Positions 1 to 4,676 of a DNA stretch of 34,611 nt are shown here, one piece after another. This DNA comes from a virus. Made by a program: the position numbers and the translations under genes. The notes below the pieces were generated by a model that worked only from the letters and a program-made list of their open reading frames with translations, had not been told where the DNA came from and searched no databases. How positions within the stretch are numbered: position 1 is the first letter of the stretch; every line of letters begins with the position of its first letter. The stretch lies in UHGV virus genome UHGV-0165227. One strand, 5' to 3'.

Positions 1-247
1 CTCGAAGGGCTTGCTTAATTGACATAACAACTTTTTCAGAAGTTGTCTTGTTTGATTTTTGAACTACGAAAATTTCGTAGTGCTCACCTTCAAGTTCATC
101 CTTAATGCGTGCAATAAAGTCGTTATTGCGGACTTCTTTTTCCCCGCACTGTCTACGAGCATGATTGACCATCTCTAACAGGTACTGGCTATCAATGGTT
201 TTATCCGTGACAACGGATCCGATGTTTGCTACATTCTTAAAAGTCAT
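1..247 (-). CDS. Hypothetical phage protein, N-terminal 82 codons only (continues past left edge); not a tailspike N-terminus
   Basis: ATG at 247..245 with AAGGAA RBS 7 nt upstream; open frame to position 1; no P22/Sf6 tailspike head-binding motif. Confidence 0.35.
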   Translation of the reverse strand, partial: MTFKNVANIGSVVTDKTIDSQYLLEMVNHARRQCGEKEVRNNDFIARIKDELEGEHYEIFVVQKSNKTTSEKVVMSIKQALR

Positions 248-285
248 TAGGCATTCCTTATGTGGTAGTAAGGGTGTGACATAGG

Positions 286-316
286 CCGCCAGCAGCACAC
301 TGGCGGTTTTCTTTTT
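286..316 (+). terminator. Plus-strand intrinsic terminator facing the 3' end of ant
   Basis: Stem CCGCCAG (286-292) / CTGGCGG (300-306), 7-nt loop, then TTTTCTTTTT (307-316). Confidence 0.5.
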
Positions 317-335
317 GCGCCGTCCGGCGCACCAA

Positions 336-962
336 TCAATGAATCCATTCCTCGCCGCGCAGTTTTGCCAGCATTGGCTGAGCGTTCTTTACGACAAAAT
401 TGTTGGTATCAAGATTCTTCATTTCACGAAGAAGTGATTTCTTGGTTTCTTCTGACATGTAGCGAGTCTCATATGCAATATCGTAAATCCTTCCTGAAAG
501 CTCAGAACCAATTTGCTTCATTCCTGGGTAGATGTGTTTGCACATTTGTTGACTCTTCTCCATCCACAATTGTAAGTAGCAGAGATTAACCAGTTCTTCG
601 TCAGTAAACTGTTTTGCAATCGGTGAGCATTCTGCCTGCCGATCCAAAATATCCAGCACCCAGCGGCGGAACTCTTTGGCTACCTGAGTGCGAGCAAACA
701 TCGCGATTAGGTGGGCACCGCGTAGTGAGAAAACACGCACTTTTTTGCGATAATTTCCTGAGGTACTCACTTCGAGTACCTGAGTCATTCCGGCGCTAAA
801 CTCATCGCTATACTTGTTATAAATCATTGTTACTGCACGACTATTTGCGTATTTAAGTGCAGATGCAATATTAGATGATGTAAACCAAACACCATGCATA
901 TCACGGGTGGGCACCAATTCAACTCCGTGGAAGTTATAATCTGATTTTGCTACAATATTCAT
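336..962 (-). CDS. ant: Antirepressor Ant (Bro-N/AntA-type N-terminal domain)
   Basis: Immediately downstream of arc on the same strand; AAGGAAA RBS before ATG at 962; Bro-N-like N-terminal pattern; upstream in-frame part of the track ORF lacks an RBS. Confidence 0.6.
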   Translation of the reverse strand: MNIVAKSDYNFHGVELVPTRDMHGVWFTSSNIASALKYANSRAVTMIYNKYSDEFSAGMTQVLEVSTSGNYRKKVRVFSLRGAHLIAMFARTQVAKEFRRWVLDILDRQAECSPIAKQFTDEELVNLCYLQLWMEKSQQMCKHIYPGMKQIGSELSGRIYDIAYETRYMSEETKKSLLREMKNLDTNNFVVKNAQPMLAKLRGEEWIH

Positions 963-1037
963 GTTAGTTTCCTTGCATACGGTTACTGACATAGAGGCCC
1001 GGTTTGTGTTCACGCACTGCCGGGCTTCACTATTTTT
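948..1037 (+). ncRNA. Candidate sar-like antisense RNA covering the ant ribosome-binding site
   Basis: Extended -10 TGCTACAAT (948-956) inside ant 5' end on the opposite strand; hairpin GCCCGG (997-1002) / CCGGGC (1020-1025) followed by U-rich tract 1026-1037. Confidence 0.35.
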
Positions 1038-1209
1038 ACTGGGCATTAGCTCTTTCCTCTCTCAGGCTTTTAGCCAGTCGCTGCACAATCGCAGAGTTGA
1101 TAGAAATTCCATCCATTTCAGCAACACGTCTAATCTCCTCCTTCATTCGCGCTGGCAAACGAAGCTGGAAACTTTGACTTTTACGACCTGTGTAAAGCAC
1201 ATCTTTCAT
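1036..1209 (-). CDS. arc: Arc-like ribbon-helix-helix repressor
   Basis: GGAGG RBS before ATG at 1209; N-terminal beta-strand plus helices motif typical of Arc/MetJ family; directly upstream of ant. Confidence 0.65.
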   Translation of the reverse strand: MKDVLYTGRKSQSFQLRLPARMKEEIRRVAEMDGISINSAIVQRLAKSLREERANAQ

Positions 1210-1237
1210 AAGTAATCCTCCCACAATGATACCAACT

Positions 1238-1251
1238 TGGTTCTAGAACCA
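1238..1251. promoter_or_regulatory. Perfect 14-bp palindrome TGGTTCTAGAACCA in the arc-mnt divergent control region; candidate operator
   Basis: Exact self-complementary 14-mer between divergent arc (start 1209) and mnt (start 1321); flanking CCAACTTGG / CAAGTTGG inverted repeat. Confidence 0.55.
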
Positions 1252-1320
1252 ATTTAACACCATTTATTTTGATGTCAAGTTGGTGCTATTGTTTAGCGAA
1301 CATCTTTACGTTGAGGTCAT

Positions 1321-1641
1321 ATGAGCAAGTTCCCTAGTCATGAAATGGATAGGTTCAATATCAGGCTTCCTGCAGGAATGCGGGATGCTATAGCTGAACG
1401 AGCCAAACGTAACGGCAGATCAATGAACTCAGAGATTGTTCAGATACTGGAAGATGCCTTGAATGCAGAAAATACACTCGGGGAAATAGCAGATAAAATC
1501 AACAGCGTCTCGGTTCCGCTAAATGTTGATGCGCTAGTTCAACTTCAAGCCCAGGTTATCGCCATGCAAAAAGAAATACAGGAAAAGTTCAGAGAGCAGA
1601 ACGAAAAGTTGAGAGAACTGCTAAACAAAAAAACCACCTGA
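1321..1641 (+). CDS. mnt: Mnt-like ribbon-helix-helix repressor
   Basis: N-terminal FNIRLP...RNGRSMNSEIVQ motif matches P22 Mnt/Arc family; GAGGT RBS; divergent from arc-ant. Confidence 0.75.
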   Translation: MSKFPSHEMDRFNIRLPAGMRDAIAERAKRNGRSMNSEIVQILEDALNAENTLGEIADKINSVSVPLNVDALVQLQAQVIAMQKEIQEKFREQNEKLRELLNKKTT

Positions 1642-1668
1642 CGGTGGGTTAATTTTTGCCTTTTTTGG
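1634..1668 (+). terminator. Weak intrinsic terminator after mnt
   Basis: CCACC-TGAC-GGTGG hairpin overlapping mnt stop, followed by interrupted T-rich tract. Confidence 0.35.
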
Positions 1669-1739
1669 ACCATATTGACTACTCATAAAATGAGATCAAT
1701 ATTTAATCGCCCAATAACGGGTGCATGTTGAGGTATATC

Positions 1740-1919
1740 ATGGCGAAAAAACCAGGTGAAAACACAGGAAAAAACGGCGGAATATACCAAGAAGTTGGCC
1801 CGCGCGGAGGTAAGAAAGACAATTTTGCCACCGTCAAGGACAACGAAAGGCTTCCGCCAACAACAAAGCCAGGTCATGGCTGGGTATTAGATAAGCGAAC
1901 TCCAGACAGCAAAAAGTAA
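1740..1919 (+). CDS. Small YjzC-like protein (function unknown)
   Basis: GAGG RBS 6 nt before ATG at 1740; KPGENTGKNGGIYQEVGPRGG pattern resembles the YjzC-like small-protein family; same strand as mnt. Confidence 0.45.
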   Translation: MAKKPGENTGKNGGIYQEVGPRGGKKDNFATVKDNERLPPTTKPGHGWVLDKRTPDSKK

Positions 1920-1925
1920 TAATCA

Positions 1926-1948
1926 AGCCGGGTCACTCCGGCTTTTTG
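1926..1948 (+). terminator. Intrinsic terminator after the YjzC-like gene
   Basis: AGCCGG (1926-1931) / CCGGCT (1938-1943), 6-nt loop, TTTTT (1944-1948); overlaps stop of the convergent minus-strand gene. Confidence 0.6.
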
Positions 1949-2298
1949 ATATGTCGCTCGCAGAACTCAACAAGCCTGCTCATTAAGTAGCAGTAAGTCT
2001 CGTTGGCTCTTCCTGGTTCAACATCAACGCCGACCCTTGAGCAGATATCGAATGCCATGTGAGCGCACTCATGGGCAATAGTAGATAGTTTGCCATTGAA
2101 CACACCTATCACATGCAAAACACCATTCTCGCTGCTCATTGTATGAGACGCTCCGTTGGCATCCGAGTCCTGCACGTCCACGCCAAGTTTTTGATGCAGG
2201 CGTTGCCATTCTGGAAAGTCTCTGCAAAACACAATTGTACCGCTCTCAAAGAGCGGAACGAGCATTTTTGGTACGTTTCCAATGTTAACTTTTTTCAT
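1933..2298 (-). CDS. Small HExxH-motif protein, candidate minimal zinc metallopeptidase
   Basis: 121-aa ORF with HECAH (HExxH) and downstream Glu residues; AGGA RBS; lies where P22 carries sieA. Confidence 0.45.
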   Translation of the reverse strand: MKKVNIGNVPKMLVPLFESGTIVFCRDFPEWQRLHQKLGVDVQDSDANGASHTMSSENGVLHVIGVFNGKLSTIAHECAHMAFDICSRVGVDVEPGRANETYCYLMSRLVEFCERHIKKPE

Positions 2299-2328
2299 GG
2301 TATCCTGCTCAAAACTAAGGAGGTTGGT

Positions 2329-2556
2329 GTGAAGCGATGGTTCCTCATAATTACTGTTTTCGCGATCATTTACACTATTTTCCCTGCATTAAAAGCACCA
2401 ATGCAAATAATTTCGCTAGCAATAATTGCAATTGGTGCTTTCATTGCAGTAGCCGTACTTGTGTTTAAGGTTTTAAAGTTTTTAGTTTGGCTATCAAAAG
2501 ATGATGGATGCAAAGTTCATCAAGAAAAAGAAGGCAAAATAACCAAAGTTGACTAA
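2329..2556 (+). CDS. Small two-helix membrane protein (75 aa), GTG start
   Basis: Strong RBS TAAGGAGGT (2316-2324) 4 nt before GTG 2329; two hydrophobic segments; AT-rich; convergent with gp16. Confidence 0.4.
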   Translation: MKRWFLIITVFAIIYTIFPALKAPMQIISLAIIAIGAFIAVAVLVFKVLKFLVWLSKDDGCKVHQEKEGKITKVD

Positions 2557-4676
2557 CTGTCACTAGCGAGCCATGTAATAATCCCCGTGCGGGCAATGGT
2601 TTTTGCTTCATCTGTTGATAAGGTTTTCTCCCATCTCTTAAATGCCCCAGATTGCATCAGTTTCCTTTCTATTACGCGTCTCACTTCTGCTCTGTCTACT
2701 GGTGCGTTTTGCAGGCGAAATAGCATTGATTTAAACTCAGGAGAAGACAGTAGAGCATCAGCAGCCTTTATCCTGCTTGTTTTCCCTGACATCAATGCTG
2801 ACGTTATCACCCCTGTTGCACCTACACCAGGAAGACCAGATAAGCTTGTAATACCTTCCGCCGCAGCAGCTTTTGAGGCTATTCCATAAATTTTTGCGAG
2901 ACTACCCTTTTCTTTCAGAAAGTTATTAACTTGCTGATCCACAAGGCTGCTAGCATACTGCTTACCAGTATTGAGTCTATTCATAGCCTTGGCTGCTTGA
3001 TAAATCGTATCAAGGCGCTTTGATGCATCTGTGCCAATAGCATCACGGAGAGCCTTCATATTGGCCCCATTGCGTGACATTCCGTTATACCATTTTACAA
3101 ATCCATCAACCCCTAATTGCTGGCCTGGTGATTTAGCATAGCTGGTAAATGCTTTATTCATTGAGGTGAGCGCAACTTCCTGCCGCATATCCTTTGGAAT
3201 TGACTTCATTAATTGCCTAAAGTCACCACCGTTTCCTTTTGCCATATTAACAACGGCACTTTCAACTTTTGGAATTGCTGATTGCTGAAGTTTTCTACCC
3301 AAAACGGTTACGGCATCATCTTCAATGGATTTTCGTGTTTTTACCAACTCCTTACCAAGCGTCCATAACTCCCCTGCGCCATATTTTTCTGCGACAGCCT
3401 GTTGGTCATCTGTTATAGCCGCATATAACTTTTTAAGAACACCTGTTTCTTCATCCTTGAATGGGCCAGAGCCTTTGCCAATAGCTTGCCCAACCTGCTT
3501 TCTAGCGAGATCTAAACGCCCATACGTTGGCAAGGTGTTTGGATCAAGTCGGTTCAATGTCCGCTTCATTATTGGAGATAATTCATCAATTCCACCTATA
3601 TCATCAGCAAAATCCTCTAAAAAATTCAATGTATTAGTTGCCTCAATCCGGTCTCTTACAGGAACCTTTTCGGCAATTTTGTTGTAGATGTTATCTGACT
3701 GATTTTGTAATGATGAAATGGTTTTATCAAAATTATCTGCAAGCCTGTCAGAAACCAGTTGCTTATCAAGGCTTCCCCCAAATGAAGTTATCATTTCATC
3801 AGCTTTTCTTCCTAATTCAGTAATAAAACGCTTATGCGCCTCACTAATCTCTGTTCCAGGGAGACTTGCCACTGCATTATCAAGAGCCCTGACAGCAGGA
3901 TTATTAGAGATCATGCCTGGAGTGGCATAATTTTCCAGTTCTAGCTCACGAATAGCATTTATCGCGTTAAAATCAGGATTAACTTCATCGGCGAAATCTT
4001 GAATAGCTCGTTGCCCGCCGATAAATTTATTGTCCATTGCGCCAGCAGCTTTCTTTAACGTTGCTTTAGATGATTTACTACCCATCCCTACGGATGAGCG
4101 ATAAATATCTCCGGCACTATTTTTAATTTTTCCTGCAATCTTCCCAAGCGCTGGACCAACAATCTCTGCTACAGGGCCAGCCACAGCGCCAATAGCAGCT
4201 CCAGAAGCAACATCGCTATTTGTTCCATTGGCTACAATAGCCCCTTCTCCAGCACCAAGCCCTGCGGCGGCAGCCAGCCTTGCCGCCCCTTTCGGAACCT
4301 GAGAAATAATCCCACCACCACTAACAAATGGCGCTGCTTGTCCAACAAACTCACCAACATCTTGTGCGGTTGATGGTTTTGCCGCTAACTTCTGCTGTAG
4401 AGACTGAATTGCGGCTTGCTCTTCTGGTGTCATATCCTGAAACAGGCCAACACCTTTACCAACATCCATCAATCCACTGAGAACGCCATACATAAAACGG
4501 TCGAAACCGTTAGCATTATTAACAACATTTTCCTGTCTGGAATTTTCCTCTGGCGAAACCAAAGGTGATTGCTGCTGTTCTGGTTGGGCATCAAGCACAA
4601 AACCATCAGGAAGCTGTGAGTTATCAGGCTGATTATCGAGAACAAAGCCTTCGGGTAAACCTACATCGGTTGCCAT
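2553..4676 (-). CDS. Ejection (injection) protein, P22 gp16-like
   Basis: Last gene of the ejection-protein trio by synteny (gp7, gp20, gp16); 707 aa, Gly/Ala-rich. Confidence 0.7.

What the first reader, a model, noticed from the sequence alone, without database searches (positions are those of the whole stretch)
1933..2298. 121-aa HExxH protein: possible minimal metallopeptidase
The ORF contains HECAH in a context (KLSTIAHECAHMAFD) like the zinc-binding helix of small zincin peptidases and ImmA/IrrE-type proteases, with Glu residues 14 and 21 positions downstream that could be the third ligand. ImmA-type proteases cleave phage repressors, and this gene sits next to the mnt/arc/ant immunity switch.
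Basis: inference. Interest (0 to 1): 0.55.

Follow-up and report, generated by a model that had tools for sequence, protein, structure and literature searches.

The report
Tiny zinc-protease-like phage gene hkcC
The ORF is hkcC, a known but uncharacterised gene of P22-like phages. It very probably encodes an unusually small zinc-dependent protease from a large, unnamed family of phage proteins whose target is still unknown.

The parts
1933..2298 (-). hkcC coding sequence (121 aa plus stop), a member of the HkcC family of minimal gluzincin-like proteins (phrog_1365)
   Evidence: ORF. 100% identical to HK620 HkcC AAK28904.1 and to P22 13861-14223. phrog_1365 E=1.4e-39. Purifying selection.
2059..2073 (-). 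Codons for H76-E77-C78-A79-H80: the HExxH motif (two proposed zinc ligands and the catalytic base)
   Evidence: Sequence read. H76 144/145, E77 143/145, H80 142/145. Lies in predicted helix 71-88.
1999..2004 (-). Codons for N99-E100: the proposed third zinc ligand (Glu) at the start of the next helix
   Evidence: E100 143/145 and N99 107/145. Aligns with the 'NE' of Bacillus cereus neutral protease (1npc, a thermolysin homologue) that holds the third-ligand Glu; same H-to-E spacing as thermolysin H146-E166. Predicted helix 100-116.
2302..2305 (-). AGGA ribosome-binding site, 4 nt upstream of the hkcC ATG
   Evidence: Read from the sequence.
1925..1944 (.). Bidirectional stem-loop terminator shared by the convergent genes hkcC and orf59a; it overlaps the last hkcC codons
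   Evidence: Terminator-like site on both strands. Annotated as a bidirectional terminator in HK620 and as the mnt terminator in P22.
1740..1919 (+). orf59a, a 59-aa basic YjzC-like protein; the convergent, conserved partner of hkcC
   Evidence: phrog_3202 E=7e-31 and Pfam YjzC E=1.3e-3, below cut-off. 98% identical to P22 orf59a. All 80 orf59a loci have an HkcC-family gene convergent to it.
1675..1703 (+). Promoter-like site (TTGACT-17-AATATT) upstream of orf59a and downstream of the mnt-like gene's terminator (1634-1647)
   Evidence: Consensus scan only. The number of promoter-like sites in the region is not above the shuffled expectation.
1625..2331 (.). Extent of the mosaic hkcC-orf59a module shared at 97% nucleotide identity with P22 and HK620; the flanks differ
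   Evidence: blastn of the window against the P22 and HK620 loci. The same stretch occurs in 284 of 5426 complete E. coli genomes, in full in 113.

Best explanation
hkcC encodes a stand-alone, cytoplasmic, roughly 120-residue zincin of the gluzincin type.

Proposed mechanism: H76 and H80 on one helix and E100 at the start of the following helix hold one zinc ion. E77 acts as the general base that activates water to cut a peptide bond. A small beta-sheet in front of the helix (strands 49-56 and 59-66) would bind the substrate chain.

Expression: the gene has no promoter of its own inside the conserved module. In every context seen except the N4-like phage phCDa it points the same way as the neighbouring lytic-cycle genes. 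It is therefore most likely made during lytic growth, by transcription running from gene 16 through the 'ant moron' towards the tailspike gene.

Partner: in this clade it is coupled to the convergent, oppositely transcribed gene orf59a (a basic YjzC-like protein with its own promoter-like site, so probably prophage-expressed). The favoured but unproven reading is that HkcC cleaves a specific protein during lytic growth. Orf59a could be that substrate or a modulator, since orf59a never occurs without an HkcC-family gene while hkcC does occur without orf59a.

Shown: gene reality, motif invariance, predicted topology, gene orientation, pairing statistics.
Inferred: zinc binding, catalysis, timing of expression, and the target.
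For: Gene identity and reality.

Family size and shape: 551 representatives at E<=1e-3 and 152 at E<=1e-10, nearly all 100-140 aa stand-alone proteins.

Invariant residues:
- G49, H76, E77, H80 and E100 are invariant in 135 sequences of 23-77% identity.
- The same holds in 145 unselected representatives.
- The catalytic-base Glu (E77) is not a metal ligand, so its invariance argues for catalysis rather than metal binding alone.

Thermolysin-like motif: phmmer aligns HECAH...RANET to HELTH...ALNEA of neutral protease and thermolysin. The H-to-E spacing of 20 residues is the same, but the match is weak (E=0.1).

Structure: the AlphaFold2 model built on 135 sequences has pLDDT 92.4 and pTM 0.85, and all five models exceed 91. 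Its order of elements is strand, strand, helix, strand, strand, helix (HExxH), helix (E100).

Weak Pfam hits of family members all fall in zincin families: SprT-like 19/135, DUF5700, DUF4344, M48, Reprolysin_2.

Orientation with the neighbouring lytic-cycle genes.

The conserved module starts only 33 nt upstream of the hkcC ATG. The literature says late transcripts read through the ant moron (PMC2629481).

Pairing with orf59a. It includes two loci where Orf59a is 76-81% identical but the HkcC partner has diverged to 44 bits against the family profile.
Against: - No significant sequence match to any solved or curated peptidase family.
- I could not inspect model coordinates, so the convergence of H76, H80 and E100 on one site is not verified.
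- A single HExxH is what chance predicts in this window.
- No expression, metal-binding or activity data exist, and no substrate is identified.
- The link to Orf59a is only genomic. hkcC also occurs with a 74-aa membrane protein in place of orf59a (11 of 80 loci), and the more distant family members have no orf59a at all.
Confidence: 0.55

Rival explanations
1. ImmA/IrrE-like anti-repressor protease: HkcC cleaves a regulator of the immunity I region (Mnt or Arc), the antirepressor Ant, or the C2 repressor, and so tunes the lysis-lysogeny switch.
For: - In the window the gene lies about 300 nt from the mnt-like gene, with arc and ant beyond it.
- Antirepressor-type genes flank the hkcC-orf59a cassette in several independent contexts: KilA-N+P63C in L093 and L184, and Arc plus two Bro-N genes in L094.
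Against: - No member matches Pfam Peptidase_M78.
- There is no Xre-type repressor next to it, which is the usual ImmR/ImmA arrangement (established knowledge).
- HK620 keeps an identical hkcC although mnt and ant are only remnants.
- In L008, L011 and L185 there is no repressor or antirepressor next to the cassette.
- Family members occur in N4-like phages and in a chimallin-encoding contig.
- Morons tend to gather at the same insertion sites, which could explain the adjacency.
Confidence: 0.1
2. SprT/Wss1/SPRTN-like DNA-associated protease: HkcC-family proteins remove proteins stuck on phage DNA, for example before or during packaging.
For: - 19 of 135 members give weak Pfam SprT-like hits (best E=1e-4, 22.6 bits against a cut-off of 25.6).
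- Foldseek listed SPRTN 6mdx at E=0.59.
- Family genes often sit next to terminase genes: ST64T, epsilon34, mEp021, L104, L106, L185.
- Several longer members carry lysine-rich basic C-terminal tails.
- Orf59a is itself strongly basic (my residue count on the sequence).
Against: - Profile-profile comparison with a genuine SprT alignment gives probability 8.8%. SprT's third-ligand His then aligns with the variable position 95.
- Most Pfam hits cover only about 18 residues around HExxH.
- There is no zinc-ribbon domain.
- The junction between lysis and terminase genes is a general moron site.
- HkcC itself has no basic tail.
Confidence: 0.1
3. Two-gene toxin-antitoxin, abortive-infection or exclusion module: HkcC is a toxic protease held in check by Orf59a (or the reverse), expressed from the prophage to exclude other phages.
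For: - The pair is tightly linked and moves as a module of about 700 bp between podovirus, siphovirus and lysis-terminase contexts.
- It sits in a region rich in prophage-expressed exclusion genes such as sieA.
Against: - The genes are convergent, not an operon.
- hkcC occurs without orf59a, and most of the family lacks it.
- No PADLOC model matches either protein.
- SieA alone accounts for exclusion (PMC10883804).
- hkcC has no promoter inside the module.
Confidence: 0.1
4. Catalytically inactive zincin-like scaffold: a small metal-binding or purely structural protein that binds or inhibits a partner without cleaving it.
For: Very small size, weak similarity to active peptidases, and no known substrate.
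Against: The catalytic-base Glu E77 is not needed for metal binding, yet it is kept in 143 of 145 representatives, as strictly as the ligands.
Confidence: 0.1
5. Not a gene: a chance ORF lying over regulatory DNA (the sieA promoter and the mnt terminator), as the P22 reference annotation implies by omission.
For: BK000583 annotates only a sieA promoter and a mnt terminator in this stretch.
Against: - Homologues down to 23% identity keep length and motifs.
- The substitution pattern is codon-position-biased.
- It has a good ribosome-binding site.
- It is annotated as a CDS in HK620 and by PGAP.
Confidence: 0.01

Closest known systems
Minigluzincins (proabylysin and projannalysin, the archaeal minimal catalytic domains related to M48/M56 peptidases)
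   Same: Stand-alone soluble proteins of about 105-120 residues that consist of little more than a zincin core: HExxH on one helix and a Glu third ligand on the next (established knowledge). HkcC has the same size, motif logic and predicted order of elements.
Thermolysin-like neutral proteases (MEROPS M4)
   Same: HExxH followed after 19 residues by 'NE'. The HMMER alignment places E100 on the 'NE' Glu of Bacillus cereus neutral protease (1npc), the counterpart of thermolysin's zinc ligand E166; thermolysin itself matches at E=0.7.
   Different: The match is not significant (E=0.1-0.7). M4 enzymes are about 316-residue secreted two-domain proteins. HkcC has no signal peptide and lacks the C-terminal domain.
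ImmA/IrrE/CapP (MEROPS M78, Pfam PF06114)
   Different: No PF06114 match in any of 135 members. Smaller. No adjacent Xre-type repressor. The family also occurs in an N4-like phage and a chimallin-encoding contig, with no repressor-type gene annotated next to it.
SprT-like / SPRTN / Wss1 (Pfam PF10263)
   Same: Small zincin domain. Weak, sub-threshold Pfam hits for 19 of 135 members.
   Different: The third ligand is His in SprT but Glu here. hhalign probability is 8.8%. No zinc ribbon.
PDB 3e11 (Acel_2062, 114-aa 'predicted zincin-like metalloprotease')
   Different: 9% identity and no sequence-level match. Its function is also unknown.
M3 oligopeptidases (oligopeptidase A, neurolysin, Dcp)
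   Different: They are enzymes of about 680 residues with a closed channel. Only the catalytic core is matched.

Membership tests
Zincin / gluzincin metallopeptidases (MEROPS clan MA(E)) | HExxH motif located in an alpha-helix | tested here: met
   H76-E77-x-x-H80 lies in predicted helix 71-88. Invariant in 142-144 of 145 representatives.
Zincin / gluzincin metallopeptidases (MEROPS clan MA(E)) | Third zinc ligand is a Glu on the following helix, about 18-30 residues after the second His | tested here: met
   E100 is 20 residues after H80 and is the first residue of helix 100-116. Present in 143 of 145 representatives. Aligns with the 'NE' Glu of neutral protease 1npc, the counterpart of thermolysin E166.
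Zincin / gluzincin metallopeptidases (MEROPS clan MA(E)) | Overall zincin fold: beta-sheet plus backing helix before the active-site helix; significant structural match to known members | tested here: inconclusive
Zincin / gluzincin metallopeptidases (MEROPS clan MA(E)) | Binds zinc and hydrolyses peptide bonds | not testable with these tools
   Needs purified protein, metal analysis and activity assays.
Minigluzincins | Sequence or structural relatedness to proabylysin/projannalysin and the M48/M56 catalytic domains | tested here: not met
ImmA/IrrE (M78, PF06114) | Match to the Peptidase_M78 profile | tested here: not met
   No hit for the window protein or for any of 135 members at E<=0.1.
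ImmA/IrrE (M78, PF06114) | Encoded next to the repressor it cleaves (ImmR/Xre type), with conserved co-occurrence | tested here: not met
   The conserved neighbour is orf59a. HK620 and several siphovirus contexts have no adjacent repressor.
SprT-like (PF10263) | Profile match above threshold; His as third ligand about 13 residues after HExxH; usually a C-terminal zinc ribbon | tested here: not met
   Best hit 22.6 bits against a cut-off of 25.6, and most hits cover only the HExxH helix. hhalign probability 8.8%, with the SprT His opposite the variable position 95. No ribbon.
Known anti-phage defence or toxin-antitoxin systems (PADLOC) | Match to a defence-system protein model | tested here: not met
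   No PADLOC hit for HkcC or Orf59a.
PHROG phrog_1365 (unknown function) | Profile match | tested here: met
   E=1.4e-39 over the full length.

The most novel reading that the evidence does not exclude
HkcC-family proteins are a phage-wide class of minimal metalloproteases made during lytic growth. They destroy a specific protein that would otherwise hinder the phage: either a bacterial factor or the phage's own prophage-expressed product. In the P22/HK620 clade that product would be the YjzC-like Orf59a. The hkcC-orf59a cassette would then be a self-contained 'effector plus eraser' module that can move between unrelated phage types.
Probability: 0.15. Interest if true: 0.75.

Novelty: new variant of a known kind. 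Interest (0 to 1): 0.5.

Why it matters
P22 is one of the best-studied phages, yet this gene sits unannotated in its reference genome and is listed as 'unknown function' in the literature. Assigning it to a large, unnamed family of about 120-residue gluzincin-like proteins has three consequences:
- It gives a concrete, mutable active site (H76, E77, H80, E100) with which to test a long-unknown P22/HK620 gene.
- It adds a viral family to the very short list of minimal stand-alone zincins.
- It exposes a conserved, mobile two-gene cassette (hkcC-orf59a) whose logic can be tested by simple genetics.

The family has 551 clusters at 50% identity and spans podoviruses, siphoviruses, N4-like phages and a chimallin-encoding (jumbo-phage-like) contig. 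If the enzyme cleaves a host or prophage factor, it would be a new proteolytic layer in phage-host or phage-phage conflict.

Tried and rejected
- Pfam, NCBIfam and PADLOC scans of the window protein gave only noise (lantibiotic hits at E 0.025-0.14).
- PDB sequence searches with the single protein and with the 135-sequence profile gave only sub-significant zincin hits (thermolysin and astacin families, E 0.1-1.7).
- The 135-sequence alignment was too diverse for the search for related loci, so I used the 19-sequence one.
- SprT-like membership was tested in two ways and rejected.
- Domain fusions: longer members carry only low-complexity basic tails and no Pfam domain.
- YjzC-like genes of Gram-positive phages were checked for an HExxH neighbour; phiCT9441A has none.
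- Literature searches for hkcC, orf59a, YjzC, minigluzincin, 'phage P22'+HEXXH and 'ant moron' found no functional study of HkcC.
- Rfam found nothing in window 1-3000.
- The idea that hkcC contributes to SieA exclusion was rejected, because sieA alone suffices (PMC10883804).

Full report
**What is there.** Window 1933-2298 (minus strand) holds a 121-aa ORF with an ATG start, an AGGA ribosome-binding site 4 nt upstream, and the sequence ...KLSTIAHECAHMAFD.... The window is a P22-like (Lederbergvirus-type) phage or prophage. On the same strand as the ORF lie the ejection-protein genes (2553-4676 and beyond), an arc-like gene (1036-1224) and an ant-like gene (336-1046). On the opposite strand lie a 75-aa membrane-protein gene (2329-2556), the 59-aa gene orf59a (1740-1919) and a mnt-like gene (1321-1641).

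The ORF is 100% identical at protein level to HkcC of coliphage HK620 (annotated 'unknown'). It is also 100% identical to an ORF at P22 13861-14223. The P22 reference annotation does not call that ORF; it marks only a sieA promoter and a mnt terminator there. Published genome analyses list hkcC and 59a as 'two genes of unknown function' in the P22 'ant moron' (PMC2629481; PMC4837284).

**Is the observation more than chance?** The motif alone is not. One HExxH occurs in all six-frame segments of the window, and 1.17 are expected. The gene, however, is real.
- Homologues at 57-63% amino-acid identity differ two to three times more often at third codon positions than at first or second.
- dN is 0.30-0.44 and dS is saturated.

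**The family.**
- A word-indexed search found only 32 close relatives, all 'hypothetical'.
- A profile search of 1.84 billion cluster representatives found 551 proteins at E<=1e-3 and 152 at E<=1e-10. Almost all are stand-alone proteins of 100-140 residues.
- In an alignment of 135 sequences (23-77% identical to the query) the invariant columns are G49, H76, E77, H80 and E100. F67, G90, Y104 and L105 are nearly invariant.
- That alignment was selected for HExxH, so I re-aligned all 145 newly listed representatives without selection. The counts are H76 144, E77 143, H80 142 and E100 143. The exceptions are truncated or frameshifted fragments.
- The family signature is therefore T-x-[AV]-H-E-x-x-H-x-[AT]-F ... 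G-[VI] ... [NGD]-E-[ATP]-[FY]-C-Y-L.

**Relation to known families.** No Pfam, NCBIfam or PADLOC model matches. PHROGs places the protein in phrog_1365, 'unknown function'.

The best PDB sequence hits are Bacillus neutral protease and thermolysin (E=0.1-0.7). That is not significant, but the alignment is instructive. HECAH pairs with HELTH, and RANET pairs with ALNEA. This places E100 on the Glu that is thermolysin's third zinc ligand, at the same 20-residue distance from the second His (the ligand identities are established knowledge).

Scanning all 135 members against Pfam gives only weak hits, and the recognisable ones are zincins: SprT-like in 19 members (best E=1e-4), DUF5700, DUF4344, M48 and Reprolysin_2. 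The SprT hits mostly cover about 18 residues around HExxH and stay below the curated cut-off. A profile-profile comparison with an alignment of genuine SprT proteins gives 8.8% probability. It puts SprT's third-ligand His opposite the variable position 95 of HkcC. HkcC is therefore not a SprT-family member.

With 135 sequences all five models exceed pLDDT 91 (best 92.4, pTM 0.85). The elements are strand 11-13, strand 21-25, helix 28-37, strands 49-56 and 59-66, helix 71-88 (carrying HExxH) and helix 100-116 (starting at E100). This is the order expected for a minimal zincin: a sheet, a backing helix, the active-site helix and a 'glutamate helix'.

**Surroundings and mobility.** Against P22 and HK620 the window is 97% identical over exactly 1625-2331, and the flanks differ. 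This roughly 700-bp module contains:
- a promoter-like site for orf59a (1675-1703);
- orf59a;
- a bidirectional terminator (1925-1944);
- hkcC;
- 33 nt upstream of hkcC.

Those 33 nt include the ribosome-binding site and start of whatever gene diverges from hkcC: sieA in P22, hkcB in HK620 and a 75-aa membrane protein here. The module holds no promoter for hkcC. The gene points the same way as genes 16 and 9, and the literature states that late transcripts read through this region. I therefore infer lytic or late expression. This is an inference, not a measurement.

**The conserved partner.** In prophages of Rosenbergiella, Klebsiella oxytoca, Xenorhabdus, Proteus and a Pasteurellaceae bacterium, and in metagenomic contigs, HkcC homologues of 46-63% identity are each followed at once by a convergent orf59a homologue of 64-81% identity. 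They sit in quite different places: between the tail-tube/chaperone genes and the tape-measure gene of siphovirus-type prophages, or downstream of a lambda-P-like replication gene.

Searching from the other side gives the same picture.
- All 80 IMG/VR loci found with Orf59a carry a convergent HkcC-family gene.
- 78 of them are detected by tblastn.
- The other two are detected by the family HMM (44 bits; HECVH...NQE). In those two, Orf59a is 76-81% identical while the HkcC partner has diverged almost beyond recognition, and the pair lies between the lysis and terminase genes.

The reverse does not hold. In 11 of 80 near-identical hkcC loci a 74-aa membrane protein replaces orf59a. The more distant clades have no orf59a: Orf-129 of ST64T/L/epsilon34 next to dec and the terminase gene, mEp021_49, the N4-like phCDa gp24, a chimallin-encoding contig, and GC-rich IMG/VR viral contigs.

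This asymmetry fits Orf59a depending on an HkcC-type enzyme better than it fits HkcC being a toxin that needs Orf59a. It is still only genomic evidence.

Orf59a is a basic protein weakly related to the YjzC family. A YjzC-family gene also lies antisense inside the head-gene cluster of Clostridium phage phiCT9441A, but with no HExxH neighbour there.

**The immunity-switch idea.** Against it:
- no M78 signature;
- HK620 retains hkcC without functional mnt, arc or ant;
- several contexts have no adjacent regulator;
- the family is present in an N4-like phage (phCDa) and in a chimallin-encoding, jumbo-phage-like contig;
- sieA alone suffices for SieA exclusion, so hkcC is not part of that system either (PMC10883804).

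For it: antirepressor-type genes lie on the orf59a side of the cassette in P22-like phages, in L093 and L184 (KilA-N+P63C) and in L094 (Arc plus two Bro-N genes). That may reflect morons clustering at shared insertion sites. I keep this reading as a minor rival.

**Verdict.** The 'minimal metallopeptidase' reading is the best-supported one (about 0.55). Its basis is an invariant HExxH...E signature that includes the non-ligand catalytic Glu, a confident model with zincin topology, and weak but consistent gluzincin fold hits. It is not a member of the M78, SprT, M4 or minigluzincin families. It is best described as a new, phage-borne family of minimal gluzincin-like proteins.

Zinc binding, catalysis, timing and substrate are all untested. 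The cassette is common: it occurs in 284 of 5,426 complete E. coli genomes, in full in 113, and is always annotated 'hypothetical protein'. Interest is moderate. It is a concrete, testable assignment for a long-unknown gene of a model phage and a sizeable unnamed protein family, but it belongs to a well-known enzyme class.

Noticed in passing
window 2329-2556 (+): A 75-aa, strongly hydrophobic protein (phrog_7294, unknown function; weak PADLOC '4TM effector' hit, E=0.052) occupies the slot held by sieA in P22 and hkcB in HK620. It starts at the same position relative to hkcC, with a strong AAGGAGG site. It may be an alternative superinfection-exclusion protein.
   Followed up: partly
window 1740-1919 (+); L008, L009, L011, L093-L095, L184, L185: orf59a is a basic 59-aa protein (10 Lys, 3 Arg) that is more conserved than hkcC (64-81% against 46-63% identity, and 76-81% even where the HkcC partner is barely recognisable). 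It is always transcribed against the flow of the surrounding lytic genes, and it has its own promoter-like site and terminator.
   Followed up: partly
L001 7161-7385; L014, L030, L037 and L052 5380-5604: In 11 of 80 loci with near-identical hkcC, a convergent 74-aa membrane protein (MISAILSVLLASLFIGVV...) replaces orf59a in exactly the same position. The swap point is the shared terminator.
   Followed up: partly
L187 1986-2153 (Clostridium phage phiCT9441A): A YjzC-family gene lies antisense inside the head-morphogenesis gene cluster of a Gram-positive phage. Small YjzC-like genes inserted against late operons may be a general moron type.
   Followed up: partly
P0065, P0068, P0116, P0133, P0149 (family members of 173-189 aa): Longer HkcC-family proteins carry lysine/glutamate-rich, strongly basic C-terminal tails with no Pfam domain. 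These could be nucleic-acid-binding or targeting tails.
   Followed up: no
L004 4001-4390, L005 4001-4390 (epsilon34 gp70, ST64T Orf-129): A 38-39% identical paralogue family sits between DUF2560/orf-118 and the 134-aa gene just upstream of the small terminase gene. That 134-aa gene is annotated 'head decoration protein' in epsilon34 and matches the size and position of phage L Dec (from memory). Some P22-like phages (ST160, SE1) show two matching places per genome.
   Followed up: partly
window 963-1046 and 988-1030: The listed 236-aa ant ORF probably starts at the internal ATG near 963 (MNIVAK..., preceded by AAGGAAA). That would leave a gap of about 70 nt after arc, containing a GC-rich hairpin followed by a T run on the plus strand. 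The position matches the antisense sar RNA of P22, but Rfam gave no match.
   Followed up: partly
window 1321-1641 (+): The mnt-like gene encodes 106 aa (Arc-like RHH domain plus a predicted coiled-coil tail), against 83 aa for P22 Mnt. It has its own terminator-like hairpin at 1634-1647, so orf59a may be a separate transcription unit here.
   Followed up: no
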